The notes under the pieces: model-generated
Database searches by the model: none
Told to the model about the DNA's origin: nothing
The model's input: only the letters and a program-made list of their open reading frames with translations
Shown here: in pieces, positions 8,927 through 61,099 of the stretch
Layout: every line of letters starts with the position of its first letter
Numbering within the stretch: position 1 is the first letter of the stretch
Position numbers and translations under genes: made by a program
NCBI GenBank assembly: GCA_049297855.1
Contig: JBAQVB010000006.1
Location: forward strand, 1,958-65,957
Origin: Candidatus Nanoperiomorbaceae bacterium
GTDB taxonomy: Bacteria; Patescibacteriota; Saccharimonadia; Saccharimonadales; Saccharimonadaceae
DNA: 64,000 nt
Direction: 5' to 3'

Positions 8927-9300
8927 AATGCGTAATGAAACCGTTTTCGCAATGTAGTGAATGTGATTAAACTGTAAATTGACGCAAATGCTCATTAAAG
9001 TGCAGACGCGCTTCACGATAGTATTAATTTAACTAGCATTTTGGCAAAAGATAGCCCCGCTAGATAATTTGCCCGAAACGGCGTTAATACCGGGCGTATA
9101 TACTAGATTCATGCTACCGGATGGGGCGCAACTATAATCTTGATAAATATGGATATGCGTTGAGTTTAGATCATAGCTCATGCCACCACTACCAACATTA
9201 TATATGTATACTTGATCTGTAGGGGTAGATAATTGACCTATATAGGCTCCCAAATTACCATCATTGGAACGGGCACTCGCGGTTGTGTTAGCTATCCAGT

Positions 9301-9306
9301 GGGGGG
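9301..9306 (-). repeat. C6 homopolymer (coding strand) at the frameshift point of pilin copy 1
   Basis: Plus strand reads GGGGGG. With 5 C the reading becomes ...SSPHWIANTTASARSNDGNLG..., continuous with ORF 9029..9322. Confidence 0.8.
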
Positions 9307-9544
9307 CTAGACCGAACAGCATAGCCGCTTATGCTCCCTTGATTGTCTACTTTATATGACTCAATGGCACTCACGACTTTGCCGACATTTTGCCTAACTG
9401 CCGTATCCTTTTGCGAATTTTGTAACGCTGGCCACGCAATGAAAACAACCAAAAATATTAAACCAGCAATCGCTAAAACCAACGCAACTTCAATTATCGT
9501 AAAACCTGAATTTGAACCTTAAGTTACAGTTGAACGTCCAGATC

Positions 9545-9564
9545 CTCTCTCTCCCTCTCTCTCT
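9545..9564 (-). repeat. (CT)4-CC-(CT)5 tract, which is (GA)n on the coding strand of the pilin copy 1 leader
   Basis: Read directly from sequence: cctctctctccctctctctctt. Encodes QEREGERG. Confidence 0.8.
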
Positions 9565-9868
9565 TGCTGGATCATGTTTTTCTCCTTCTTTTTCATACTT
9601 TTTCGTGCCGTCCAGTTAATCACAAGCGAGATAGCGTGTCAAGCGTCTATGGTTTTTTCGGCGAGTTTTATTGAATTTACTATGCTATCTCATTGTGTTA
9701 TGGCAACGATTGGCGATCAATATGGTTATTTGCTTTTCTGTTTCACGTATGCTACAATAAATCAGTAAATATCAAGCGAGTAAGGTTAAATATAAACTTT
9801 GCGACTCTATTTTCACAATAGAACAGAGATATATCTCTTATTTTACGCGCATAAAAGGAAAGGACGAA

Positions 9869-12088: not shown

Positions 12089-12097
12089 TGGTAGAAT
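12089..12097 (+). promoter_or_regulatory. Extended -10 (TGgTAGAAT) 7 nt upstream of ATG 12105
   Basis: Sequence motif only. It overlaps the first ATG (12096), which argues that 12105 is a leaderless start. Confidence 0.4.
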
Positions 12098-13673
12098 GAG
12101 TTACATGGATGACCACGATCGAGACGTTAAGCGCATGGATCCTAATGAGCCGGTTTTATTTCGCTTACGTGATTTTTATGTTAAGTTTCATCGCCAAATT
12201 ATTATTTTGGCCATTCTTTTGCAAATTTTTACCATCGGTATTCTACTGGCACTATTTGTGACGTTAATTACTAAACAGCCGACGTGGGAAATTATGTTAA
12301 TAATAGCGGGTGTCGCCACTGTGATTGAGCTCGTCGGTGGTTTTTTGCTGATCGGTTTTACGATGCGACCGCTCAAAATTGTTAGTCGACTCATTGATCA
12401 CAAATTGGATGACAACACAGAGCCCTTAAACCTCAACGAAGCCGTGTTTCATGATTTTGGCATGTCGCCTTTTACCGACAGTGTAAAACACGCTTTGGCC
12501 GGGTCAACCACCAGAGCAACCGTAAAAGCGCAGCTAAATTCTGGCATATTCGATAAAACCTCTTTAAATTTTCTCAACCGTTTGCCAATCGGGCTGATTG
12601 CGTTGAACGCGAATGGCGTCTTGGTGTTCGCCAATGCGCTGGCGCCACTAGTGCAGGGTGAGATAGAACTTGATTTTACGGGTTTCGAAGAAACCTTGTC
12701 ATCGTTTTTGATTGCCGCAAAACAGAACGCGATTTCACGACAAAAATCCTGGCTACGCGTTCAGAATCATCCCCGAAAAAATGACGAAGCGGATAGCGAT
12801 CGTCGGATTTACGATGTGATAGCCAGTTATGACCGCGACGCGCCAGGTGATGCGGAAACCGTTATTGTCACGATTGATCAAACCGATAGCTATCGTGATG
12901 ATGAAACCGGGATGGATTTTGTTGCCCTGGCGGCGCACGAGTTGCGCAGTCCGATCACGCTGATTCGCGGTTATCTGGAGATTTTGGGCGATCAGTTGCC
13001 ACACTTAACCGACCAACAGCAAAAAATCATGGATTCACTGAATGTCAGCGCTCACCGCTTATCGAGTTACGTTTCAAATGTTTTGAACGTTAGCCATTTC
13101 GATCATCGTCATTTGCAACTTGAACTCAAAGAAGTTAGCGTTGATACTATCATCAGCGATATCCGCTCTGACATGGAATTACGCGCCCGCACGGTTGGGC
13201 GAAAACTTATTTTCAATATCCCAAATGATCTGCCGACGGTCGCAGCCGACCGTTCGTCGATTTCCGAAGTCGTGTCTAATCTGATAGATAATGCTGTTAA
13301 ATATTCACATGACGGCGGATTGGTAGAAGTTTCGGCCAAAACAGCGGGCGATTTCGTTGATATTGCAGTGGCCGATCAGGGCATCGGTATTCCGGGCAAT
13401 GTAGCGGAGCATTTGTTTGACAAATTTTACAGATCGCACAAGAGCTCCAGTGTGGTTGGTGGCACCGGTCTCGGCCTCTATATTTCGCGCGCCATCGTCG
13501 AGAGTCACGGCGGTCATATCTCGGTGGAATCGGTCGAGGATAAAGGGTCGATCTTTACGTTTAGCTTGCCGATTTTTGCGAGCGTCGCAGATAAAATCGC
13601 TAGCGGTAACAACGTTGAACTAATTCGCGACAACGAACCGCGCATCAATAATCACGGTTTCACCGAATCATAA
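12096..13673 (+). CDS. Membrane sensor histidine kinase (2 TM, HisKA + HATPase_c)
   Basis: 525 aa. H-box AAHELRSPITLIRGY, N-box and G-boxes (DQGIGIP, GGTGLGLYISR). The real start may be ATG 12105. Confidence 0.9.
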   Translation: MSYMDDHDRDVKRMDPNEPVLFRLRDFYVKFHRQIIILAILLQIFTIGILLALFVTLITKQPTWEIMLIIAGVATVIELVGGFLLIGFTMRPLKIVSRLIDHKLDDNTEPLNLNEAVFHDFGMSPFTDSVKHALAGSTTRATVKAQLNSGIFDKTSLNFLNRLPIGLIALNANGVLVFANALAPLVQGEIELDFTGFEETLSSFLIAAKQNAISRQKSWLRVQNHPRKNDEADSDRRIYDVIASYDRDAPGDAETVIVTIDQTDSYRDDETGMDFVALAAHELRSPITLIRGYLEILGDQLPHLTDQQQKIMDSLNVSAHRLSSYVSNVLNVSHFDHRHLQLELKEVSVDTIISDIRSDMELRARTVGRKLIFNIPNDLPTVAADRSSISEVVSNLIDNAVKYSHDGGLVEVSAKTAGDFVDIAVADQGIGIPGNVAEHLFDKFYRSHKSSSVVGGTGLGLYISRAIVESHGGHISVESVEDKGSIFTFSLPIFASVADKIASGNNVELIRDNEPRINNHGFTES

Positions 13674-13702
13674 ACCGGTGATTTGGCGATTGAAGGCTAA
13701 TT

Positions 13703-13711
13703 TGATAAAAT
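13703..13711 (+). promoter_or_regulatory. Extended -10 (TGaTAAAAT) upstream of tRNA-Glu
   Basis: Motif ends 11 nt before the tRNA 5' end. Confidence 0.4.
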
Positions 13712-13722
13712 ATATCCGTTAT

Positions 13723-13797
13723 GGTTCGATCGTCTAACGGTTAGGACATCAGGTTCTCATCCTGACAATCCGGGTTCGATTCCCGGTCGGATCACCA
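13723..13797 (+). tRNA. tRNA-Glu (anticodon CUC), CCA encoded
   Basis: Manual fold. Acceptor GGTTCGA/TCGGATC, anticodon stem TCAGG/CCTGA with loop TTCTCAT, T-arm CCGGG-TTCGATT-CCCGG, discriminator A then CCA. TCGTCTAACGG D-region is typical of tRNA-Glu. Confidence 0.88.
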
Positions 13798-14103
13798 GAA
13801 TTTTGTCAAATCATTTGCCGTTGAATTAGATGCGTCTAAAGAATTTATCGAAAAATATCAGTTCAGCCGCGACAAAACCGGTAGAGAATTAGCATCGCAA
13901 CGGCTTAATTGTGGCGACATTGGATGGCATTGGTTTGGTTTGATTTTTTACGTGTGTTTTTTATTGTAATGTACGCGACTGCACGATATCATCAGGCGTG
14001 GATCAGTTGTTTTCATACTTTACCAGCGAAATCACCAGTTCGGTGCAATTTGGCACTTTTTATTTTGGGCTGATTCTGTTAAAATGTCTATGGTAAAGGA
14101 TAT

Positions 14104-15369
14104 TTGGTGGGATTTTTAGATCATTTGGTGAACAAAAAAGCATATAACGCGCGAACGTCGCAGCTGTCGACTGAGCGCGGTGATTTAGCTGACGCCGTTA
14201 TTCATGAAATTAGCGAAGGCGTAGTCGTGACGGACGATAAAGGGATTATTTCCTTGTTTAATTCGGGCGCGGCGACGCTGACTGGTTGGAAAACGGATGA
14301 GGTAATTAATTTGGATTACAGAACGGTTTTTAAGTTGTTTGATAAAACGAAGCACCCACTAGCGGATGCGGCCAATCCGATTATCGAATCGCAACGCTCC
14401 CAGGCGCCAGCCTCCAACAATGATTGTTATCTCGAAACCAGGTCTGGCAACCAGCTTTTAATTTCCATGAGCGCGATGCCGTTGTTAAAATCCGTGCGCG
14501 ATAAGTTAAGCAAGCAAGACGTTGTTCAGATGAGTAATCTAGTAATCACGTTTCGTGATGTGACAGCGGAACGCGCCGACCAAAATCAACAAACCGAATT
14601 CATTTCCACCGCCAGTCACGAGATGCGCACACCGGTAGCAATTATTGAAGGATACCTGGCGATGCTACTTAATCCGACGACATCAACGGTCGATGCGCGC
14701 GGTTTAGGCTACGCGAAAAAGGCTCATGAGGCGGCACAACATCTGGGTCGTTTGTTCCAGGATTTGTTGGACGTGACCAAGGCGGATGATCATCGTACGC
14801 TCACTAACATGATTTTAGTAAACGCCGGCGATGCAGCTAAACAAGTGGTGCAAGAGTTTCAACCGATGGCTGCACGCAAGTCGCTGCGCCTAACTTACGA
14901 TCAGAACGACGGTATCAGCGTCGATCATGGTGACAGAGTAATCGTGCCACTTTACGTCATCTATGTTGATTACGATCAGCTCAAGGAAATTTTGGGTAAT
15001 TTAGTGGAAAACGCTCTTAAGTATACCAAAATGGGTGGTGTGACGGTTGGGGTGCGAGATGATGCGGGCCGGGTGCGCTTTGAGGTGCGTGACACTGGTA
15101 TCGGCATCCCGCCAGAGGATTTGCCGCATCTGTTTCAGAAGTTTTACCGCGTCGATAATTCGGACACACGCGAAATCGGTGGCACTGGGCTAGGATTATA
15201 TTTGATCAAGAAACTGGCGAACAATATGGGTGGAGAAGTTGGGGTAGAGAGTCATTACGGTCGCGGTTCAACTTTTTGGGTGGAATTCGATAATTTGACG
15301 CGTGACGAAGCTATTCAAAAGGCTCGAATTATTAATCAACGAAATAAAACGGCGGCCACCCACCAATGA
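14104..15369 (+). CDS. Cytoplasmic PAS-domain sensor histidine kinase
   Basis: 421 aa with no TM segment. PAS-like N-terminus (ISEGVVVTDDKGIISLFNSGAATLTGW), H-box ASHEMRTPVAIIEGY and HATPase motifs. Non-ATG start (TTG 14104 or GTG 14107), so the start is uncertain. Confidence 0.88.
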   Translation: MVGFLDHLVNKKAYNARTSQLSTERGDLADAVIHEISEGVVVTDDKGIISLFNSGAATLTGWKTDEVINLDYRTVFKLFDKTKHPLADAANPIIESQRSQAPASNNDCYLETRSGNQLLISMSAMPLLKSVRDKLSKQDVVQMSNLVITFRDVTAERADQNQQTEFISTASHEMRTPVAIIEGYLAMLLNPTTSTVDARGLGYAKKAHEAAQHLGRLFQDLLDVTKADDHRTLTNMILVNAGDAAKQVVQEFQPMAARKSLRLTYDQNDGISVDHGDRVIVPLYVIYVDYDQLKEILGNLVENALKYTKMGGVTVGVRDDAGRVRFEVRDTGIGIPPEDLPHLFQKFYRVDNSDTREIGGTGLGLYLIKKLANNMGGEVGVESHYGRGSTFWVEFDNLTRDEAIQKARIINQRNKTAATHQ

Positions 15370-15441
15370 TCGTTGGTTGCATAAAATAAGCATGGGTGCT
15401 ATGATTGGTTAAATCATAAATAATGAAAGGGACGGGCGAGC

Positions 15442-16611
15442 ATGAGTACAATTCTGTTGGTAGAAGACGATAAGTCATTACGCGAAATCTATGGCTTACG
15501 CATGCAAGCCGAAGGTTATCAGGTTGTTGAAGCGTCCGATGGCGAAGAAGGGTTAGCGCAGGCGGTAGCCAACGCGCCGGATTTAATTGTCAGTGACGCC
15601 ATGATGCCAAAAATCAGCGGTTTTGAAATGCTCGACCTTCTGAAGAGTAACGACAAAACGAAAAACATTAAGGTTATTATTATGACGGCGCTATCGTCCG
15701 ACACGCAGCGACAACGCGGTGAAGGGCTCGGCGCCGATCGTTATCTGGTCAAGAGCCAGGTCGGCATCGAGGATCTCATTAACGTAATCCATAGCGTGTT
15801 AGCCGATCGTCCAAGCAAAGCGGTATCACCAGTAGAAACGTCGTCAGGTATGACTCCAACGGTGATGCCACCGACGGATCCAATCCCGAACTCGGTACCG
15901 GATTCGATTCCTGCCGCCGTCGTGGCGGCTCCGGCCAATGTTTTTGTGCCGACTGGTAAAACGTCCAATATTCCATCAACGCCGATGGACGTACCGACCG
16001 TCATTAATCCGATCAATTCCGCTGCCATCACTCAGGCTGCTCCCGAAACTCCGAACATCACAGCGTCACCATTTACGCCTATTGATCCGGTGGCGCGTTT
16101 AGCGTCGACCGCGCCGACATCGTCGTCTCTGAGCGCGTCGGCGCAACCGGTTTTTCGACCAGCGCCCAGTTCTCAACAGCCGTCGACATCAATGCCACAG
16201 TCGCAGCCACAACCAACAGCTACGCAATCGGCTTTTGTTGGGCAAAATCCGAGTTTAACTCAACCCGCCCCAGATGATGATCAGGACACATCGGCTGCCA
16301 ACGAGCAATTAGCCACCACAGAGCCACACGTTCTCAATGGTTTAGGTGGTATGGGTCGTGTAATTCAACCTCCCACACCAACCGAAACTTTGCATCCGCA
16401 AGTCGATATTAACGACTTGTTAGACCAAGATGCGGCCGCTAATTTGGGCCTCAGCTCATCAAATCCGACGCAAGCTCAAGCTCCATCATCCATGTCACCG
16501 AGCGCTGACGCGCCTCTGGACGAAGTGTCCGTTCAGTCCCAACTGGATGACGCTAACGCTCAGCTGCCGACTGCTTCGTCAAACACTACGCTTAAATTTA
16601 ATGAGAATTAA
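15442..16611 (+). CDS. Response-regulator receiver domain fused to a ~270-aa Pro/Ser/Thr/Gln-rich low-complexity tail
   Basis: 389 aa. N-terminal 120 aa are CheY-like (ILLVEDD..., DLIVSDAMMPKISGFE, IIMTALS). The rest has no recognisable output domain. Confidence 0.85.
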   Translation: MSTILLVEDDKSLREIYGLRMQAEGYQVVEASDGEEGLAQAVANAPDLIVSDAMMPKISGFEMLDLLKSNDKTKNIKVIIMTALSSDTQRQRGEGLGADRYLVKSQVGIEDLINVIHSVLADRPSKAVSPVETSSGMTPTVMPPTDPIPNSVPDSIPAAVVAAPANVFVPTGKTSNIPSTPMDVPTVINPINSAAITQAAPETPNITASPFTPIDPVARLASTAPTSSSLSASAQPVFRPAPSSQQPSTSMPQSQPQPTATQSAFVGQNPSLTQPAPDDDQDTSAANEQLATTEPHVLNGLGGMGRVIQPPTPTETLHPQVDINDLLDQDAAANLGLSSSNPTQAQAPSSMSPSADAPLDEVSVQSQLDDANAQLPTASSNTTLKFNEN

Positions 16612-17461: not shown

Positions 17462-20400
17462 GTGACAATGAAGCGTAATTGGCAGCAACGAAACGATGGG
17501 CGAAAACACAATAATGGAAGTGTGCGACATAAAGTGATGTTACGCGCGAGCGCGACAGTGACGCGAATTATACAATTACTAAGCTCTGGTCGATCACGGA
17601 CTATGGTCGCGGTCGTGATCAGCGTCGCAGTTGTGACGGTGCTTGTTGCATTGAGTGCTGGCGGCGACACTAAAGTGTATGGGGCATCCGGTAGCGGTGG
17701 AACCACTATGACATGTTATGACTGGTGTGATACTAGCGCCGGTTATGGCGTATCAACTTTTTATATAGACCGTCCCTATCTGCTAGTCAATAACCCCAAC
17801 CCAGCTGGAGACAATAATATTTGTTGGTACGTCGATAAAACTACTGGGCGAACGTCTAATGATTGTATTGCGTCACCTGATAGTCCAAATAAAGGTAGTA
17901 ATTCCTGTTGGCAAATGTGGCAAACATGCTTCGGCTATACGCTAAAGGGAGTTGGAACAACCGCGTATAATGCTAATCTGGCAGAGGCAGAGAATTCGTG
18001 TCGAGCTGAAGGATCTAACGCTATTACATACGCTTATGTTATGAGCGTACATCCGGGTATTCCACCTGTACCGTGGCCATTCGCGGCTGGCAAAATTGAC
18101 GAGAGTCCGCCAGCTCCAAGCTGGGGTCAGACAGATCAATCAAATCAAGGTTTGGCTTGGTTTTGTAACTCCGTTGGTTCCAATGCATGGTCATCCGCTG
18201 GCAACATGCATGTTGATAACCATTACATTGGAGGTCGCAACTGGTCGTATTTGGATCGTCAAGGTAATCCGGCCAACGGCAACACTATGGTCTTTAGCCC
18301 TGGTCAGACTGCGGTTTGGTCCAGCCAAATTTGGACAAGTGCGGCTTTTCCAAATCACCGTGAAAATTGGTTCCAATGGTGGACGGATAAATCTGGAGAT
18401 TGGTCGGGTGATATCGCTTCAGGGATAGTCGACGACACTGGCACTAATGCAGGTAGCGGGATCGGCGTCTATCCGCCAGACGCAAATTCGGGACCGACTG
18501 GGTTCAGCTATGGTATCAGCAATAGTGATGCCGGTAAGACGCTTTGTAATCGCTTACGTTGGGGATGGACTGACAGCAACGGGAATTGGGCGAATCCAGA
18601 TAATTACAAAGCTTGTGTCCTGATTAATTACGCCACCTACGGCGGGAATAATCGTATTTCCACTCAAGTTACAGCCACGAATAAGACATCGAACGCAAAA
18701 ACCAGCACCAAATCGGTGGATAGCAATGGCACAAGAAGCGGATCGGATGAATGGGTGAACGCTTATCCTGGTGATAACGTCCAGTGGGACTACCTGACGA
18801 CGAATTGGGACACGCGATATCCAACGGCCTATGATTTTAGAACCGGTTTCTATAAAACTGATTGGTATCCTAGTGGCGGTTCGCGCGTATCGAACTTTAC
18901 CCGAAAATATGGTCAATTAGGAGCAGGGGCTAGCACGTCTTGGTCGGATTCATTTCAGATTATCCCAGCTTGGGGAGGCAAAAATATTGATGAGTATTCC
19001 TCATTCCACTGGGATCCGCATTGGGCTGATTCGGGATACACCGGTTTAACTGCCCGTGCCGGCTTCCATGTTCCGTATAATTATCAAATCAAAACCACCG
19101 GAACGGGCACGCTAACTACCAATACATCCGGACAATCAAGCTGTGATGATAACCACGTGACGGTCGGAACAAATTCATCGCTGAGTTGGACATTGAGTGC
19201 AAGTACTCCGGTTGCTGGCCACGCCGCTACAAATTCCAGGCCAGTTTCCTGGAAGGTAATAGACGGAGCCGGAAACCCAGTAGCTGTGACGGCAACCCGT
19301 GGCGGCACTGCGGTCTCCTCGCCAATGGTTTTTCAACCTATGGATAAGATCACGATTACGCTTAATTTGCCGGTTCAATCTGTGGCTGGCAATGTATTGG
19401 CATATCGCCTGATAGTTAACGACGGTGCATCAGGACCGTCTAGTACGTCCGTAGTGGAAACCGACTCAGACAACGTAATATCCAGCGTAAGTAACACGTC
19501 ATCTTGTGCTGAAAGTGCCAAATCACCATCGATTCAGGTCGACGGCGCGGATAGTCGGGCTAATAGGAACTTTACAGGCGCTAGCGGTTCGCACGTCGCA
19601 ACCAACGGATCCTGGTCGCAATATGGTCTCCTGGCCAACGGCAACATCAATAATTTCGGTTCGGCGGGATATGTTGATAACGGCGACAATAATTCGTGCA
19701 CGTTACGTTTCGCCAACGTTGGTAACAGTGGGGGTAGCAACTGCTCGAGAGCGTTTGGCTCGCCAGGGAATTTTGGCAATCCGTTTAAACGAAATTTGCC
19801 AATGGTCATCGGTTCGAACAGTAATAGCAGCGACATTTTCGCTGGAGCCTCGCCCCAAAGTTGGGATAGCAACGGCGGGCCCCTATGGTCAAGCTCGGGT
19901 TGCGTAACGCCGCACGCCGATCTAGGCTATCTCCAGGTACCGGGCGTCTATCGATACAGTGGGGGACTTCAGATTGCAGGTGGTAGCACTGGCTGTTCCG
20001 GTATGTTTGGCACTCGCACTTACACTGACCAGATGCATGGCAACTATATAATCTACGTGAATGGCGACGTGACCATAGCAGACAACATTAATCTAGAGTA
20101 TGGACTTTCACCTGGTTCCAAAGCCTATGGATCGCTTTCCAACATCCCGCAATTTACTATTTATGCCACAGGTAATATTAATATCAATTCCAACGTCGCC
20201 CGTATTGATGCCAACCTAGTGTCGCAAACTGGCACGGTCAACGATTGTGCTAATGGCCCTGCGGGATCGGGTGTGGGTGCAGATCCTAGTTATAGAGAAA
20301 ATGGTGCGTGCGGTAACCAATTAGTTGTTAACGGAGCAATTTCAACCAATACTACGCCGCGTTTGCGTCGTACTTATGGCGCGGAGTTAGCGACAGAACA

Positions 20401-20572
20401 AGGGCAAGATGCTTGTCGTGGCGGCGTCAACATGGACTATGCCTCTCCGGCTGAATGCATCCGCTACACGCCGAATCTATACTTGGTGCCAGCCTTCACT
20501 TCGCAACAAGATAGCGCCGGCAACCAGAATTGGCAAACCACCGATGAAACGAGTTTGCCCGTGCGATATTAA
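17462..20572 (+). CDS. Large orphan membrane-anchored, presumably extracellular Cys/Trp/Asn/Gly-rich protein
   Basis: 1036-aa ORF. Basic N-terminus followed by one TM segment (MVAVVISVAVVTVLVALSAGG). About 20 Cys and many Trp. I recognise no known domain. Start is GTG 17462 or ATG 17468. Confidence 0.75.
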   Translation: MTMKRNWQQRNDGRKHNNGSVRHKVMLRASATVTRIIQLLSSGRSRTMVAVVISVAVVTVLVALSAGGDTKVYGASGSGGTTMTCYDWCDTSAGYGVSTFYIDRPYLLVNNPNPAGDNNICWYVDKTTGRTSNDCIASPDSPNKGSNSCWQMWQTCFGYTLKGVGTTAYNANLAEAENSCRAEGSNAITYAYVMSVHPGIPPVPWPFAAGKIDESPPAPSWGQTDQSNQGLAWFCNSVGSNAWSSAGNMHVDNHYIGGRNWSYLDRQGNPANGNTMVFSPGQTAVWSSQIWTSAAFPNHRENWFQWWTDKSGDWSGDIASGIVDDTGTNAGSGIGVYPPDANSGPTGFSYGISNSDAGKTLCNRLRWGWTDSNGNWANPDNYKACVLINYATYGGNNRISTQVTATNKTSNAKTSTKSVDSNGTRSGSDEWVNAYPGDNVQWDYLTTNWDTRYPTAYDFRTGFYKTDWYPSGGSRVSNFTRKYGQLGAGASTSWSDSFQIIPAWGGKNIDEYSSFHWDPHWADSGYTGLTARAGFHVPYNYQIKTTGTGTLTTNTSGQSSCDDNHVTVGTNSSLSWTLSASTPVAGHAATNSRPVSWKVIDGAGNPVAVTATRGGTAVSSPMVFQPMDKITITLNLPVQSVAGNVLAYRLIVNDGASGPSSTSVVETDSDNVISSVSNTSSCAESAKSPSIQVDGADSRANRNFTGASGSHVATNGSWSQYGLLANGNINNFGSAGYVDNGDNNSCTLRFANVGNSGGSNCSRAFGSPGNFGNPFKRNLPMVIGSNSNSSDIFAGASPQSWDSNGGPLWSSSGCVTPHADLGYLQVPGVYRYSGGLQIAGGSTGCSGMFGTRTYTDQMHGNYIIYVNGDVTIADNINLEYGLSPGSKAYGSLSNIPQFTIYATGNININSNVARIDANLVSQTGTVNDCANGPAGSGVGADPSYRENGACGNQLVVNGAISTNTTPRLRRTYGAELATEQGQDACRGGVNMDYASPAECIRYTPNLYLVPAFTSQQDSAGNQNWQTTDETSLPVRY

Positions 20573-23789: not shown

Positions 23790-24548
23790 ATGCGCCAAGG
23801 GTTTAAAATTTCTCGTGTCAATCATCGCAGAACTGTCACTGCAACCAAATGTTGGATGCGGTTGGCGATTGTGGTTTTGCTATTACTAGCCGTGGTTATA
23901 ATTAGCTATTGGATTTATACACGGCTCAATCAATCAAACATCATTAAAATACAAGGAGCGAATTTTAATAATAATGGCATCTCGACAACACCCATCACGC
24001 CAAGTGCGATTGATAATTACAAAGTCCCCGCCACGCATCCGCGTTTGTTGATTATTCCATCGCTCCAAATCAATGCTCGCGTGTCATCGCTCGGCGCGTT
24101 GCCGCCGCATAACGGCGGACAACAACTCGATGCTCCCAAAAACATTTACGATGTCGGTTGGTATGATTGCACGATTAATCCCATCGCCGCCAATCGTTGC
24201 GCCACTCCAAAGCTGCCTAATGATCACAATACGACAGCGGCCGGACTCATTGACGGTCACAGTTGCGAAGGTTACCCTATGACCTGCGTTTTCAATAATT
24301 TGGCGCGGCTACAAAAAGGTGCTACGATTACGCTTCAACTCGGCGATGCCAGCAATATTAATTACGTCGTTCAGGAAGTCGACACCGCTTCTCTCAACCA
24401 GGTTGACATGAATAAAATGTTAAAACCGATTGTCAGCGGTCGTAATGGTTTGAATTTGATTACTTGCGCTGGCGATTGGACAACTAAAGATTCGCGCGGC
24501 CGAGCGACAATGAACCAACGGGTGGAGGTTTACGCTATTCAACAATAA
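23790..24548 (+). CDS. Sortase-family transpeptidase (class E/F-like)
   Basis: 252 aa. N-terminal TM anchor. Has a catalytic His context (LIDGHS), LNLITCAG (TLxTC-type Cys motif) and a C-terminal Arg (RVEVYA). Confidence 0.75.
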   Translation: MRQGFKISRVNHRRTVTATKCWMRLAIVVLLLLAVVIISYWIYTRLNQSNIIKIQGANFNNNGISTTPITPSAIDNYKVPATHPRLLIIPSLQINARVSSLGALPPHNGGQQLDAPKNIYDVGWYDCTINPIAANRCATPKLPNDHNTTAAGLIDGHSCEGYPMTCVFNNLARLQKGATITLQLGDASNINYVVQEVDTASLNQVDMNKMLKPIVSGRNGLNLITCAGDWTTKDSRGRATMNQRVEVYAIQQ

Positions 24549-29671: not shown

Positions 29672-29767
29672 TGAAATCTCCCTTTTAACCTTTTAATAGA
29701 TATCTTTAACGTGATTAATTATAACATTTAATTTTTATAAATTCCGCTTGCGTGTTGATTATGCATA

Positions 29768-29776
29768 TGTTAAAAT
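29768..29776 (+). promoter_or_regulatory. Extended -10 (TGtTAAAAT) 6 nt upstream of the pilin copy 2 ATG
   Basis: Sequence motif only. Confidence 0.45.
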
Positions 29777-29782
29777 GACCGC

Positions 29783-30305
29783 ATGATGAAAATCGCAAGA
29801 AATCACGGACGAGTTAGTTTCCCTAAACTAAAAACATTACCCCCCCCCACGATCTAGCGGCTTCACTATAATTGAGGTAGCGTTAGTCTTAGCTATAGCC
29901 GGACTTATTTTCCTGGTAGTGTTTATCGCCTGGCCAGCACTACAGAATTCGCAACAAAACCAGGCCAGGCGTCAGGACGTCGGGCGAGTGATAAGCGCAT
30001 TGGAAGCATATAAGATGGACCACCAGGGACAATTCCCACTTGGTGGATGGTATAAATCAGATGGTTCAAGTAGTAACCGGGAATACAATTTCTCAAACTA
30101 TACTAACAAGCTCTCCCAAATATACAATATTGAGGTCTTTGACCTAGGCACTTCTACTTGGAGAGCTATGGGTAGCGCGCGAGATATCAATGTAATTCCC
30201 GGCAGAGTTTGTCCTGGCGACGCTCGTACACCAACCTCGGATAACGCTGCGGTAGAAGTGGGACTTGTCGGCAACGGCGACGCCAACTATTGCCAGTCGC
30301 TATAA
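29783..30305 (+). CDS. Type IV pilin-like protein, copy 2. The reading frame is interrupted at the poly-C tract in the leader (frame OFF as assembled).
   Basis: ATG 29783/29786 gives MMKIARNHGRVSFPKLKTLPPP.. and stops at TAG 29855-57. Body frame runs from GGC 29859: G|FTIIEVALVLAIAGLIFLVVFIAWPALQNSQ... to stop 30305. C-terminal Cys pair present (C...YC). One C fewer restores the frame. Confidence 0.8.
29840..29848 (+). repeat. C9 homopolymer within pilin copy 2 leader codons
   Basis: Counted directly: 9 consecutive C. Confidence 0.95.
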
Positions 30306-41269: not shown

Positions 41270-41331
41270 AACATTCGGGCTGTCGCGACCGCTGAAACCG
41301 CGACAAAAACAAGAGACTGACCGCTCTAAAA

Positions 41332-41358
41332 CCTCCGACAAGTGCCGGAGGTTTTATT
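41332..41358 (+). terminator. Rho-independent terminator after rpsI
   Basis: Stem CCTCCG/CGGAGG (41332-37 / 41346-51) with an 8-nt loop, then TTTTATTATT. Confidence 0.65.
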
Positions 41359-41517
41359 ATTGATGAAAACACAAGGTAAGCGGATAATATTTTTATATAT
41401 ACTTTACGAACTCCATGGCAACCGACAGGGATTTTTAATTTCGCGTTCCTCTTGTGCTAATATAAATACTGATATACAATAAGGACAGTAATTAATTCAA
41501 TAAGGAAACTATATATA

Positions 41518-42049
41518 ATGATTAGCGATAAATCCATTGCGACGACCAAAACATCTGCAGACATAAACGAGAATACCCCCCCACCGAGCTAGTGGCTTCA
41601 CCATTATCGAGGTAGCGTTGGTTTTAGCTATCGCTGGGCTTATCTTTCTCGTGGTATTTATCGCCTGGCCAGCGTTACAAAATTCGCAAAAAGATACGGC
41701 GTTACGTCAGGATACCGGCCGCATCGCCAGCGCCCTGGAGTCAATAATGGTGGATAATCAAGGAGAGCTAGACACTCATCTTGTTTCTTCCACGATTCAA
41801 AACTATGCTGGCAAGTTAAGTGTTATTAATAATATTCGGGTGTTACCGTGGTGGTCAAATAAAGCTAATAACATGCTAAATCATAGCACGGCGGTAGTTT
41901 ATGACAACGCAAGCTGCCCACTACATCTCGGTTCTAGCAACCAAAACACAAATCCAATATTTGGCTTTTCTAATAGCAGTCCAATAATAAATGGCGCCGC
42001 TGTCGTGGTTTGGCTCAACTCTGGCGCCTTGTACTGTGTAGGAGTGTAA
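41518..42049 (+). CDS. Type IV pilin-like protein, copy 3. The reading frame is interrupted at the poly-C tract in the leader (frame OFF as assembled).
   Basis: ATG 41518 gives MISDKSIATTKTSADINENTPPPS and stops at TAG 41590-92. Body frame runs from GGC 41594: G|FTIIEVALVLAIAGLIFLVVFIAWPALQNSQKD... to stop 42049. C-terminal Cys pair (SCPL...LYCVGV). One C fewer restores the frame. Confidence 0.8.
41576..41582 (+). repeat. C7 homopolymer within pilin copy 3 leader codons
   Basis: Counted directly: 7 consecutive C. Confidence 0.95.
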
Positions 42050-50951: not shown

Positions 50952-51578
50952 GTGAATAAACTAAATTTGAACCAGCCACTAGCCGTTGTGGTCGTCGGAT
51001 TGCCAGGCGCGGGCAAGACGTTTTTTGCGGAACGTTTTGCAACGATGTTTGGCGCCCCGGTCGTGAGTCGTGATCGAATTCGTTGGACGTTATTTGCCAA
51101 TCACACTTATTCTGACAACGAAAACGCCATGGTCAATCAAGTGGCCGATTTATTTATAAATGAGATGTGGCGCTCTAAGCACACTTTTGTATTGGACGGC
51201 GGTTACGATCGCCACCAGACACGCGATCATTTAATCAGGCTAGCAAAAAAAGCTGGTTTTTATCCACTTGTGGTCGAGATTCAGTCCGGTGAACCAATAT
51301 CGCAGGATCGTGCCACGCACCGCCGCGCCAAAAATCCAGATGATAAATATAATCAATCTTTGTCGACGACGCAATTTGCGAAATTCAAAAACGATTACGA
51401 GGCGCCACGCTCCGGTCAGAACACCGTGGTCATCAGTGGCACCCACACAACGCAAACCCAATTACGAACGGTACTACAGAAAATCATCACACTGGAGAAA
51501 ACGGCGACCACTGAGGAGAAACGAGTTGCTAGTAAAAATAACGCGTCGGGCGCAGCCAGCAAAGTTTTCATCCAATAA
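50952..51578 (+). CDS. P-loop ATPase/kinase (AAA_33 / zeta-toxin-like fold)
   Basis: 208 aa. GTG start after AGGAGGGG. Walker A GLPGAGKT. Confidence 0.75.
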   Translation: MNKLNLNQPLAVVVVGLPGAGKTFFAERFATMFGAPVVSRDRIRWTLFANHTYSDNENAMVNQVADLFINEMWRSKHTFVLDGGYDRHQTRDHLIRLAKKAGFYPLVVEIQSGEPISQDRATHRRAKNPDDKYNQSLSTTQFAKFKNDYEAPRSGQNTVVISGTHTTQTQLRTVLQKIITLEKTATTEEKRVASKNNASGAASKVFIQ

Positions 51579-51690
51579 CGCACCGCCGGATCAATCGATC
51601 TGTTGCGTTCAATACCGCATTTTAATCGCTAGCGCTCGTGCCAGTTCAATTTTACATGATGACGAATTCGGCGATATCGAGGTCAGGCGC

Positions 51691-52335
51691 GTGCGTGGCT
51701 CGATGCTGCGACTCAAAATTCAAACTAATGGCCAAATCGTGGCGCAATTGCCGCATTTCGTCTCGACACGCGAAGTCGTGAAATTACTGGAACGATCGCG
51801 GCCAAGTCTGCGTCAAAATCTCAAAGCCATGCCGACTAAAAAAAATTATCACGACAACGATACTATCGGTAAAAGTCATATTCTGCATTTACGCAGCAAC
51901 GCGGTGCGCGATCACGTCATGGTCACAAAATCAGCCATCAACGTCGATCTGACGTCACGTACGTCTTCCGCCATTCGCGAACACCTGATCAAAGACGGTG
52001 TTGAAAAGGCTTTGCGCTTGGAAGCCAAAGCTTATTTACCGCGCCAACTGCGTTTTTGGGCGCTCAAATTTGCCGATCGTGGTATTCATTACGAGCGCGT
52101 CCAGTTCACGCACGCTAAAAGTCGCTGGGGTTCATGTAGCTCAACGGGCACAATTTCGCTCAATATTATGCTGATGACGTTACCGCAAGATCTGATCGAT
52201 TATGTGTTATTGCATGAGCTCAATCACACAATTCACATGGATCACAGCGCGGCGTTTTGGGCCGAGCTAGAGGAAATTTGTCCCCACGCCAAACGTCGAC
52301 GTAAACTAATGCGCCAATATTCGCCATATTTGTAA
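51691..52335 (+). CDS. YgjP/DUF45-type (M48-like) zinc metallopeptidase; start codon uncertain
   Basis: HELNHTIHMDHSAAFW (HExxH...H..FW) motif. ORF 51268..52335 overlaps the upstream gene. The first canonical in-frame start after that gene's stop is GTG 51691, but conserved-looking residues (FGDIEVRR) lie just before it. Confidence 0.6.
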   Translation: MRGSMLRLKIQTNGQIVAQLPHFVSTREVVKLLERSRPSLRQNLKAMPTKKNYHDNDTIGKSHILHLRSNAVRDHVMVTKSAINVDLTSRTSSAIREHLIKDGVEKALRLEAKAYLPRQLRFWALKFADRGIHYERVQFTHAKSRWGSCSSTGTISLNIMLMTLPQDLIDYVLLHELNHTIHMDHSAAFWAELEEICPHAKRRRKLMRQYSPYL

Positions 52336-60417: not shown

Positions 60418-60484
60418 GCAGCTTCCTGTGCATTTATTCTATCACACGAAAGGTAAATTTGCATTTCTATTCCACTTGTGCTAA

Positions 60485-61099
60485 ATGAATGGCATAATGA
60501 AGATAGCCAAAAATAATACCCCCCCCCGAGTTTCGGTAGAGAATAAGATTGGAGAGGGAGGCAATCAGCGCGGTTTTACTGTTATAGAGGTCGCTCTGGT
60601 TTTGGCCATCGCTGGTCTGATTTTCCTTGTCGTTTTCGTCGCTTGGCCAGCGCTCCAAAATTCGCAAGCGGATACGGCCAGGCGGCAAGATGTCGGGATC
60701 GTTATCAGGGCTATTGATTCTTACAGATTGGATGCATCCAACGGTGGCTGGTTTCCAGCCTGGCGAGGGGTATATCTAAATGGCAACCGCCAGTCGCTTT
60801 CCTTTGGCCCCTATCTTCAAGGACTATCCAGCAACACGCAGTTTGTTTACATTCGCGCGGGTAATAATCCTGGCTCGAATTGGACTTACAAAGATTCTCT
60901 CTCGTCTGGAAGCGTAACCAGCAATGCTACTACATCTGATTCCGTCCCGTCCATGAATGGTATTTCGGTATATACTGGTGCGGAATGTGGAAATGGTCAA
61001 TCAATGATTGCGCTGGGTGACCCAGCTGTAAATCCGACACATATTGCGGTTGTAATTCGATTATCTTCTGGAATTTATTACTGTCAACAAGCCTACTAG
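60485..61099 (+). CDS. Type IV pilin-like protein, copy 4 (frame ON through a C9 tract)
   Basis: 204-aa intact ORF: ...MKIAKNNTPPRVSVENKIGEGGNQRG|FTVIEVALVLAIAGLIFLVVFVAWPALQNSQ... with a C-terminal Cys pair (AECGNG...IYYCQQAY). The likely start is ATG 60497 (MKIAKN, parallel to MKIARN in copy 2). Confidence 0.85.
   Translation: MNGIMKIAKNNTPPRVSVENKIGEGGNQRGFTVIEVALVLAIAGLIFLVVFVAWPALQNSQADTARRQDVGIVIRAIDSYRLDASNGGWFPAWRGVYLNGNRQSLSFGPYLQGLSSNTQFVYIRAGNNPGSNWTYKDSLSSGSVTSNATTSDSVPSMNGISVYTGAECGNGQSMIALGDPAVNPTHIAVVIRLSSGIYYCQQAY
60519..60527 (+). repeat. C9 homopolymer within pilin copy 4 leader codons
   Basis: Counted directly: 9 consecutive C, read as T-P-P-R. Confidence 0.95.

What the first reader, a model, noticed from the sequence alone, without database searches (positions are those of the whole stretch)
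41518..42049. Second pilin-like gene with a poly-C (C7) tract in the same leader position, also +1 out of frame
Seen in sequence: ATG 41518 reads MISDKSIATTKTSADINENTPPPS and then TAG at 41590-41592. The C7 run is at 41576-41582. The pilin body (GGC 41594, G|FTIIEVALVLAIAGLIFLVVFIAWPALQNSQKDTALRQ..., stop 42049) is in the frame reached by removing one C or adding two, giving ...NENTPHRASG|FTIIE. The 20 nt after the tract (ACCGAGCTAGTGGCTTCAC) are homologous to those after the copy 2 tract (ACGATCTAGCGGCTTCAC). In both, the CTAG becomes an immediate stop in the OFF frame and R-x-S-G in the ON frame. Two independent loci sharing the same tract-plus-trap design is hard to explain by random decay.
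Basis: partly seen in the sequence, partly recalled or inferred. Interest (0 to 1): 0.8.

Follow-up and report, generated by a model that had tools for sequence, protein, structure and literature searches.

The report
Poly-C switch in Saccharibacteria pilin genes
A pilus-subunit gene of an ultrasmall episymbiotic bacterium (Saccharibacteria) is kept out of frame only by a run of seven C's in its cleaved leader, one of several such pilin genes that most likely act as mutational on/off switches for alternative pilus subunits.

Summary
ATG 41518 reads 24 codons to TAG 41590-92. C7 lies at 41576-82. An intact type IV pilin body (41594-42049) sits in the +1 frame.

The window comes from a Ca. Nanoperiomorbaceae MAG and holds four pilin paralogs. 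All four C/G runs of 6 or more in the 64 kb lie in these genes:
- C9 at 29840: out of frame.
- C7 at 41576: out of frame.
- C9 at 60519: in frame.
- C6 inside a fourth copy that also carries a nonsense codon.

An independent assembly (4 SNPs) also has C7, so this is not a one-off assembly error. Relatives carry leader tracts of C6, C9, C10 and C17, or T-interrupted tracts. These are in or out of frame at loci whose proteins cluster at 90% identity or more.

CCC is a rare proline codon here (11%). The paralogs are old (synonymous sites saturated) yet conserved.

Best reading: a slipped-strand, phase-variable contingency locus (about 0.55). No length variation was seen at this locus itself, and C7 is marginal.

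Rivals are a recently fixed frameshift, programmed slippage, and the ATA start used by NCBI.

This is a known mechanism, and my literature searches found no report of it for Saccharibacteria pilins.

The parts
41327..41356 (+). Intrinsic-terminator-like hairpin plus T-run ending the upstream ribosomal-protein operon (after rpsI). It makes the pilin gene a separate transcription unit.
   Evidence: 11-bp stem, 5 GC pairs, T-rich tail; ORF context
41455..41463 (+). Extended -10 promoter-like motif TGcTAATAT. It lies within a block (cTTGTGCTAAnnT) shared by the upstream regions of the pilin paralogs and of relatives.
   Evidence: motif at -63 from the ATG here; at -18/-15 in copies 60497/29783 and in L150/L155; at -61 in L153/L157/L001. 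Function is inferred, not shown.
41502..41506 (+). Shine-Dalgarno-like AAGGA, 11 nt before ATG 41518
   Evidence: direct reading
41518..41592 (+). Leader reading frame from the canonical ATG: 24 codons (MISDKSIATTKTSADINENTPPPS) ending at TAG 41590-41592 in the present C7 state
41573..41575 (+). ATA codon in the body frame, used as start by NCBI's annotation (158-aa product MPPHRASGFTIIE...)
   Evidence: P0161 = MFZ2560102.1; the coordinate follows from its length
41576..41582 (+). Poly-C tract, C7. C6 or C9 would put leader and body in one frame.
   Evidence: Also C7 in the independent assembly L081.
41594..42049 (+). Pilin body in the +1 frame: G(-1) codon, FTIIE... mature pilin of 150 residues, then stop. 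The ORF is intact.
   Evidence: PF07963; invariant G, F, T, E, two Cys; AF2 pLDDT 85, helix 4-54 plus 4 strands
29783..30305 (+). Paralog 'copy 2': ATG 29783, C9 tract 29840-29848, TAG 29855-57, pilin body 29859-30305 in the +1 frame (OFF; needs C8 or C11)
   Evidence: C9 and OFF also in L151 and L152.
60497..61099 (+). Paralog with C9 tract 60519-60527 IN frame (ON): MKIAKNNTPPRVSVENKIGEGGNQRG|FTVIE...
   Evidence: C9 ON in L149 and C6 ON in L150. NCBI protein P0162.
9029..9596 (-). Fourth paralog. It has a (GA)n-rich leader, an in-frame TAA (9521-9519) four codons before G|FTIIE (G codon 9506-9504), and a C6 run (9306-9301) at a +1 frameshift inside the body. It is probably a decayed copy.

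Best explanation
The locus is one of a family of scattered type IV pilin genes in a Saccharibacteria (Ca. Nanoperiomorbaceae) genome. Each has its own promoter and an unusually long prepilin leader (about 25 aa) that carries a poly-C tract.

Proposed mechanism, inferred by analogy with known simple-sequence contingency loci:
1. Slipped-strand mispairing during replication changes the number of C's.
2. This moves the pilin body in or out of frame with the ATG.
3. Each cell lineage therefore expresses a different subset of alternative pilin subunits.
4. The tract lies in the leader that prepilin peptidase removes, so its length does not alter the mature pilin.

In this genome the 60497 copy is ON (C9). 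The 29783 copy (C9) and this copy (C7) are OFF by one extra C. This copy would switch ON at C6 or C9. With only seven C's it is probably the slowest switch of the three.

Shown: the anatomy, the pilin identity, the non-random tracts, the length differences among relatives, and the intact OFF alleles. Inferred: that switching happens within populations and is selected for.
For: 1. All C/G runs of 6 or more in 64 kb are in pilin paralogs on the coding strand. Two C9 runs are seen where 0.02 are expected.
2. The tract is made of CCC codons. CCC is 11% of Pro codons here, and none of 10 Pro-Pro pairs in 14,007 codons is CCC-CCC. The constraint is therefore on nucleotides, not on the peptide.
3. 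The paralogs are old and selected. In the first 38 mature codons pS is 0.67-0.99 and pN is 0.05-0.10, so there has been no recent gene conversion. All three still keep a pure tract.
4. The same C9 length is in frame in one copy and out of frame in another.
5. Relatives show length change at loci whose proteins cluster at 90% aa identity or more. One locus reads C6TC3TC3 (ON), C4TC3TC3 (ON) and C17TC3 (OFF). Another reads C9 (OFF), against a C10 inferred from protein P0011 and a tract-free 'ITSSSQ' allele. Other leaders carry C6, C9 and C10, all ON.
6. The OFF alleles here have no other lesion and keep ATG, SD-like AAGGA and the shared extended -10 motif. The pre-tract leader of copy 2 (MKIARN) matches that of the ON copy (MKIAKN).
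7. C7 is reproduced in an independent assembly that differs by 4 SNPs.
8. Type IV pili mediate host attachment in Saccharibacteria (PMC9894109, PMC11623550). This is the kind of surface trait that is usually phase-varied.
Against: - No tract-length difference was seen at the three loci of this species. This locus is C7 in 2 of 2 assemblies. Copy 2 is C9 in 3 of 3. The ON copy is C9 in 2 of 2, even at 94% aa identity.
- No in-frame variant of this gene or of copy 2 was found among 5.8 billion clustered proteins.
- C7 is short. A Neisseria survey used a detection cut-off of G9 and found a modal length of 9 (PMC5953494).
- A fourth paralog carries a nonsense codon plus a frameshift, so real decay does occur in the family.
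- Most other Saccharibacteria pilins have short leaders without any tract.
- No read-level data were available.
Confidence: 0.55

Rival explanations
1. Recently fixed frameshift, meaning a young pseudogene. The poly-C tract is a mutational hot spot. One insertion has silenced this copy (and copy 2) for good in this species, and the ON copy at 60497 and other paralogs supply the pilus.
For: The OFF state and tract length are identical in every same-species assembly found. A fourth paralog is clearly decaying, with TAA plus a frameshift at a C6 run. C7 is short for frequent reversion. The two SNPs in the copy-2 body are both nonsynonymous.
Against: The 151- and 148-codon bodies are fully open and have no second lesion. 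ATG, SD and promoter motif are kept. Pure CCC runs persist in old paralogs despite rare CCC usage. Relatives show tract lengths moving in and out of frame, so the state is reversible on evolutionary time. This rival overlaps the best explanation, because an OFF contingency gene and a young pseudogene look the same in a single genome.
Confidence: 0.2
2. Programmed recoding. The out-of-frame arrangement is the working state. A fraction of products is made in frame either by RNA-polymerase slippage on the C run or by +1 ribosomal slippage of tRNA-Pro on CCC-C. This sets a low expression level, for example for a minor pilin.
For: The out-of-frame length is conserved across strains. All four DNA-verified OFF alleles (this one, copy 2, L157, L158) have the body in the +1 frame, which is the shift tRNA-Pro makes on C runs according to established knowledge.
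Against: Four of four has a chance of 0.06. P0011, known only as a protein from which C10 is inferred, would be in the other OFF state. In-frame alleles with the same tract are common (c60, L150, L155, L156). There is no slow or stop codon at the shift site, since the stop lies 2-3 codons downstream. There is no stimulatory RNA structure (z-scores -0.05, 0.11 and 0.71) and no Rfam match.
Confidence: 0.1
3. The gene is intact as it stands. Translation starts at the rare ATA codon 41573 just before the tract, as NCBI annotates, giving a short 8-residue leader MPPHRASG. The upstream ATG frame is only a small upstream ORF.
For: NCBI protein MFZ2560102.1 (P0161, 158 aa) begins MPPHRASGFTIIE. A leader of 6-12 residues is the norm in other Saccharibacteria pilins.
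Against: By established knowledge ATA is a very weak initiator. No SD-like sequence precedes it, whereas AAGGA precedes ATG 41518. Copy 2 has the same architecture and no possible start in the body frame. Relatives read from the upstream ATG through the tract.
Confidence: 0.05
4. Assembly or sequencing artefact. The true tract is C6 or C9 and the gene is simply in frame.
For: Homopolymers are error-prone on some platforms. The window comes from a metagenome-assembled genome.
Against: An independent Logan assembly of another run, carrying 4 SNPs, gives C7. Two further independent assemblies give C9 for copy 2. Other genes in the window show no homopolymer frameshifts. The one overlapping ORF pair checked (50952-52335) looks like two separate genes by inspection (no family search was run), and the ribosomal protein genes are intact.
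Confidence: 0.05

Closest known systems
Neisseria pilC1/pilC2, with a homopolymeric G/C tract in the reading frame (signal-peptide region); also opa genes with CTCTT repeats in the leader-coding region
   Same: Both have a repeat tract inside the 5' coding region of a surface or pilus protein, in the part removed on export. Tract length sets the reading frame ON or OFF. Several unlinked copies switch independently (PMC5953494; the signal-peptide location is from established knowledge).
   Different: PilC is a pilus-associated adhesin/tip protein with a Sec signal peptide, not a pilin with a prepilin (class III) leader. Neisseria tracts are usually G9-G20. Switching has been shown experimentally there, not here.
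Bordetella pertussis fim2/fim3/fimX, with a poly-C tract in the promoter of each fimbrial subunit paralog
   Same: Scattered paralogous fimbrial subunit genes each carry their own poly-C tract. A single-C change switches one subunit without affecting the others (PMC10172299, PMC1891110).
   Different: In Bordetella the tract lies in the promoter, so control is transcriptional, and the fimbriae are chaperone-usher type. Here the tract is in the coding leader of type IV pilins, so control is translational.
Campylobacter jejuni / Helicobacter-type poly-G/C contingency genes
   Same: Short G/C homopolymers within ORFs of surface-structure genes. Modal tract lengths and ON/OFF states are often shared between isolates. 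Stochastic switching serves as bet-hedging (PMC8437040, PMC5380846).
   Different: Those are mostly glycosyltransferases and flagellar or capsule modification genes. They are experimentally validated. The organisms are free-living pathogens, not episymbionts.
Saccharibacteria type IV pili (TM7x PilA1/PilA2, TM7i)
   Same: Same protein class and phylum. Multiple divergent pilins share a conserved N-terminal helix. The pili are needed for host binding and twitching (PMC9894109, PMC11623550).
   Different: The TM7x pilin paper I searched (PMC11623550) does not mention phase variation, leaders, pseudogenes or slippage. The pilins of oral, gut and other Saccharibacteria sampled here have 6-12-residue leaders without poly-C.

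Membership tests
Type IV pilin (prepilin with class III signal peptide) | G(-1) / F(+1) ... E(+5) cleavage-methylation motif followed by a hydrophobic stretch | tested here: met
   G|FTIIEVALVLAIAGLIFLVVF by direct reading. Pfam PF07963 scores 21.3 bits against a cut-off of 21.2. TIGR02532 scores 16.2 against 16.3 for this copy, just under, and passes for the two sister copies. G, F, T and E are invariant in 38 homologs.
Type IV pilin (prepilin with class III signal peptide) | Lollipop fold: N-terminal helix of about 50 residues, then an alpha/beta globular domain | tested here: met
   AF2 gives pLDDT 85.4 and pTM 0.76, with helix 4-54 and strands 80-85, 99-104, 135-140 and 146-150. Foldseek against PDB gave no significant hit. 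A profile search of PDB gave only a weak PilE match, E=0.003.
Type IV pilin (prepilin with class III signal peptide) | C-terminal disulfide-bonded region (two conserved Cys) | tested here: met
   C108 and C148 are invariant in the 38-sequence alignment.
Type IV pilin (prepilin with class III signal peptide) | Short basic leader (type IVa, about 5-10 aa) and genomic prepilin peptidase/assembly ATPase | tested here: inconclusive
   The leader in the ON frame is 25 aa, closer to type IVb length. No pilus machinery was found among the 10 large ORFs of the window that were scanned. The rest of the genome was not available.
Simple-sequence-repeat phase-variable (contingency) locus | Repeat tract in the ORF whose length change toggles the reading frame, in an otherwise intact gene | tested here: met
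   C7 is OFF, C6 or C9 would be ON, and C8 is OFF. The body is open for 151 codons, and promoter motif, SD and ATG are present.
Simple-sequence-repeat phase-variable (contingency) locus | Tract-length polymorphism between strains at the same locus | tested here: not met
   For this locus, C7 is seen in both assemblies. Copy 2 is C9 in three. The sample is very small. The feature IS met at related loci of relatives: C6/C4-interrupted against C17, and C9 against an inferred C10.
Simple-sequence-repeat phase-variable (contingency) locus | Within-population heterogeneity and reversible switching at high rate | not testable with these tools
   No read-level data and no culture were available.
Simple-sequence-repeat phase-variable (contingency) locus | Tract longer than expected from composition and maintained against codon usage | tested here: met
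Programmed ribosomal frameshift / transcriptional slippage gene | Out-of-frame arrangement conserved in all orthologs, with stimulatory elements (slow codon at the site, SD-like or structured RNA) | tested here: not met
   The arrangement is conserved in the 2-3 assemblies available. However, paralogs and relatives with the same tract are in frame. There is no structure signal, no Rfam hit, and the stop is not adjacent to the tract.
Pseudogene | Multiple independent inactivating lesions / relaxed constraint | tested here: not met
   The tract frame is the only lesion in this copy and in copy 2. The feature is met for the fourth paralog at 9029-9596. Too few SNPs exist for a dN/dS test within the species.

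The most novel reading that the evidence does not exclude
Episymbiotic Saccharibacteria of the Nanoperiomorbaceae clade run a 'pilin phasome'. A set of scattered prepilin genes have evolved long leaders specifically to host poly-C switches. Populations therefore continuously sample alternative pilus surfaces, for host-range choice or phage and host-defence evasion. In addition, the recurrent +1 OFF state may be leaky through tRNA-Pro +1 slippage, so that 'OFF' copies are made at minor-pilin levels.
Probability: 0.12. Interest if true: 0.8.

Novelty: new member of a known kind. Interest (0 to 1): 0.55.

Why it matters
Type IV pili are the organelle by which Saccharibacteria find and bind their bacterial hosts (PMC9894109, PMC11623550). 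What sets host range and how these tiny-genome episymbionts adapt without much regulation is largely unknown.

A family of pilin genes switched by homopolymer slippage would give a cheap, regulator-free way to vary the attachment surface. My literature searches found no report of this for Saccharibacteria or Patescibacteria.

It also has practical consequences:
- Annotation pipelines call these genes truncated or frameshifted, or give them odd start codons (ATA here).
- Some related MAG pilin proteins are annotated 'partial' and start just after the expected tract position, which may mean assemblies break there (not followed up).
- The hypothesis can be tested directly with existing metagenomic reads.

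Tried and rejected
- The genome-contig scan (80 loci) and the JGI metagenome scan (67 loci) returned almost only distant Saccharibacteria pilins with short in-frame leaders and no tract. They were useful as an outgroup but gave no orthologs.
- Exact-protein look-ups failed for the NCBI proteins P0011 and P0015. The tract of P0011 is therefore inferred from its protein only.
- L154 (0.8x coverage) shows a 1-nt deletion and a lost start codon. I discounted it as unreliable.
- Foldseek of the AF2 model against PDB gave no significant match. Pilin identity therefore rests on the motif, the secondary-structure layout and homologs.
- RNA folding around the three tracts showed nothing unusual, and the Rfam scan of this locus found nothing. 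This removes support for a structured frameshift signal.
- I checked the overlapping ORFs at 50952-52335 as a possible homopolymer frameshift elsewhere. By inspection they look like two separate genes (no family search was run).
- I rejected the 'CTAG trap' as a designed element. Relatives terminate their OFF frames at other codons.
- Within-species dN/dS was not attempted formally. There are only 1 synonymous SNP (this body) and 2 nonsynonymous SNPs (copy-2 body).

Full report
**Observation**

- ATG 41518 opens a 24-codon frame (MISDKSIATTKTSADINENTPPPS) that stops at TAG 41590-92.
- A run of seven C's lies at 41576-82.
- From GGC 41594 an open frame of 151 codons runs to the stop at 42047-49, in the +1 frame. 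It encodes G|FTIIEVALVLAIAGLIFLVVFIAWPALQNSQ...
- Deleting one C or adding two fuses the two frames. Adding one gives a third frame that also stops quickly.
- The body frame has no ATG/GTG/TTG upstream of the G codon. It has only ATA at 41573.

**What the gene is**

The body has the prepilin cleavage/methylation motif. Pfam PF07963 scores 21.3 bits against a cut-off of 21.2. TIGR02532 is borderline here and passes in the sister copies.

In an alignment of 38 homologs, G, F, T, E and two C-terminal cysteines are invariant. An AlphaFold model from that alignment is confident (pLDDT 85). It shows a helix spanning residues 4-54 followed by a four-stranded sheet, which is the pilin 'lollipop' layout. 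Foldseek against PDB found nothing significant. A profile search found only a weak PilE match.

Homologs are annotated as prepilin-type proteins of Candidatus Nanoperiomorbaceae, phylum Saccharimonadota. The window itself corresponds to a 68,430-bp contig of such a MAG.

The gene lies between the rpsI end of a ribosomal-protein operon, which ends in a terminator-like hairpin at 41327-56, and trpS (gene table). Upstream it has an extended -10-like motif, TGcTAATAT at 41455-63, and an AAGGA 11 nt before the ATG.

**The family in the window**

A motif scan of all six frames found four paralogs with a nearly identical mature N-terminus.

| Copy | Tract | State |
|---|---|---|
| 29783-30305 | C9 at 29840-48 | out of frame by one extra C, like this locus |
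| 41518-42049 (this locus) | C7 at 41576-82 | out of frame by one extra C |
| 60497-61099 | C9 at 60519-27 | in frame |
| 9596-9029, minus strand | C6 at 9306-9301, in the body | in-frame TAA four codons before the cleavage site, plus a +1 frameshift at the C6 run |

These four runs are the only C or G runs of 6 or more in the whole 64 kb. All are poly-C on the coding strand. A Markov model expects 0.02 runs of C9, and there are two. The chance that three tracts all fall in the 317 nt of leader is about 1.5e-8.

The tracts are CCC codons, yet CCC is only 11% of proline codons here. None of ten Pro-Pro pairs in 14,007 codons is CCC-CCC.

The paralogs are old. In the first 38 mature codons, synonymous differences are saturated (pS 0.67-0.99) while pN is 0.05-0.10. 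The shared N-terminus therefore reflects selection, not recent gene conversion, and the pure tracts have persisted or been renewed over a long time.

**Same-species comparisons**

Three protein searches and exact-contig look-ups recovered independent assemblies.

| Locus | Assembly | Differences from window | Tract |
|---|---|---|---|
| This locus | Logan SRR28060973 (L081) | 4 SNPs in 830 bp; the one in the body is synonymous | C7, OFF |
| Copy 2 | SRR7457760 and SRR28060973 | two nonsynonymous SNPs, no other lesion | C9, OFF |
| ON copy | SRR29761461 (94% aa identity) | many substitutions (94% aa identity) | C9, ON |

The tract lengths are therefore not one-off assembly errors. They also show no polymorphism at consensus level. 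No in-frame version of this gene or of copy 2 turned up among the clustered proteins.

**Clade-level comparisons**

Most Saccharibacteria pilins from species-representative genomes and JGI metagenomes have leaders of 6-12 residues and no tract. A group of relatives, partly from wastewater metagenomes, has long leaders containing T-P, T-P-P or T-P-P-P. Their DNA shows:
- C6, ON (L150).
- C9, ON (L155, from the same sample as L150).
- C10, ON (L156).

Two loci are informative because their proteins cluster at 90% identity or more.
- **First locus.** It reads C6TC3TC3 (L001, ON), C4TC3TC3 (L153, ON) and C17TC3 (L157, OFF, body in the +1 frame).
- **Second locus.** It reads C9 (L158, OFF, +1). Protein P0011 implies C10. 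Proteins P0004 and P0163 have ITSSSQ in place of the tract.

The leader tract therefore expands, contracts, gets interrupted, and moves genes in and out of frame among close relatives.

**Mechanism**

The best-supported reading is a simple-sequence contingency locus. Replication slippage in the poly-C run toggles translation of the pilin body. Because the run sits in the cleaved leader, its length is neutral for the mature protein. In this genome one copy is ON and two are OFF.

Two steps are inferred, not shown: that switching occurs within populations, and that selection acts on it. For this locus C7 is marginal, since a Neisseria survey found a modal tract of 9 and used 9 as its detection cut-off (PMC5953494). 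I put this explanation at 0.55.

**Rivals**

- **Young fixed frameshift (0.2).** It fits the invariant OFF state and the decayed fourth copy. It fits less well with the intact expression signals, the nucleotide-level maintenance of the tract, and the reversibility seen in relatives.
- **Programmed slippage (0.1).** All four DNA-verified OFF alleles need a +1 shift, the shift that tRNA-Pro makes on C runs. However, in-frame alleles with the same tract are common. There is no slow codon at the site, no unusual RNA structure and no Rfam match.
- **ATA start (0.05).** NCBI annotates this copy from ATA 41573 (MPPHRASG...). The codon is weak and lacks an SD-like sequence, and copy 2 has no equivalent start.
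- **Assembly error (0.05).** The independent assemblies argue against it.

**The 'CTAG trap'**

The two OFF copies do share CTAG, which gives TAG in the OFF frame. This follows from their homologous R-x-S-G codons. Relatives stop their OFF frames elsewhere, so I do not treat it as a designed feature.

**Comparison with known systems and novelty**

The mechanism resembles several known systems:
- Neisseria pilC, with a homopolymer tract in its reading frame (PMC5953494; the signal-peptide location, and opa as a parallel, are from established knowledge).
- Bordetella fim2/fim3, where scattered fimbrial subunit paralogs each carry a poly-C tract in the promoter (PMC10172299, PMC1891110).
- Campylobacter poly-G genes (PMC8437040, PMC5380846).

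Searches of the paper library found no report of repeat-mediated phase variation of pilins in Saccharibacteria or Patescibacteria. The TM7x pilin paper does not mention it.

I rate it a new member of a known kind, with interest 0.55. It would be notable for the biology of episymbionts and can be tested directly with existing reads. It remains unproven at the population level, and this locus is the weakest switch of the set.

Noticed in passing
window 9029-9596 (minus strand): A fourth pilin paralog. Its leader is rich in GA dinucleotide repeats (GAGAGAGAGGGAGAGAGAGG). It has an in-frame TAA (9521-9519), apparently within a 12-nt insertion relative to the 'RSTVTSG|F' leader of relative P0026. 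A C6 run (9306-9301) sits exactly at a +1 frameshift in the body. It looks like a decaying copy, or one with a second internal tract.
   Followed up: partly
window 41573-41575: NCBI's annotation of this MAG (MFZ2560102.1) starts the gene at ATA immediately before the C7 tract. This hides the frameshift architecture. Copy 2 did not turn up as an NCBI protein in my search.
   Followed up: partly
window 41450-41463, 60470-60485, 29745-29775; L150, L153, L155, L156, L157: A conserved upstream block cTTGTGCTAAAyTG (an extended -10-like TGnTAAAyT) precedes the pilin paralogs and their relatives. In some copies the ATG follows within about 18 nt (nearly leaderless). In others a 5' UTR of about 45-50 nt with an SD follows.
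   Followed up: partly
window 29840/41576; L157 1475-1491; L158 436-444: All four DNA-verified out-of-frame alleles carry one C too many, so the body is in the +1 frame. None is one C short. This may reflect insertion bias of slippage, chance (p about 0.06), or tolerance of a leaky +1 shift.
   Followed up: no
related NCBI MAG proteins P0015, P0026, P0033, P0062: Several Nanoperiomorbaceae pilin proteins are annotated 'partial' and begin a few residues before G|FTIIE, just after where the tract would lie. This suggests contigs break at the poly-C tract, through coverage loss or length heterogeneity. Their DNA could not be fetched.
   Followed up: no
same MAG, other contig (P0165 = MFZ2560662.1, 9,832-bp contig): A fifth pilin paralog of the same genome, closest to this locus (AWPALQNSQKDMALRQD...SIMVDNNG). 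It is in frame, with leader MATKTTDIKAMKPKIAPASRDVNRPNG. Its DNA was not examined.
   Followed up: no
window 17462-20572 (+): A 1036-aa ORF with no Pfam family at E<=1e-5. It sits next to a cluster of histidine kinases and a response regulator (12096-16611). A sortase-domain ORF lies at 23790-24548.
   Followed up: no
L154 (ERZ15185054, 0.8x coverage): This allele of the cluster-7 locus has ATG changed to AAG and a 1-nt deletion just after the interrupted tract. At this coverage, a real lesion cannot be told from a sequencing error.
   Followed up: partly
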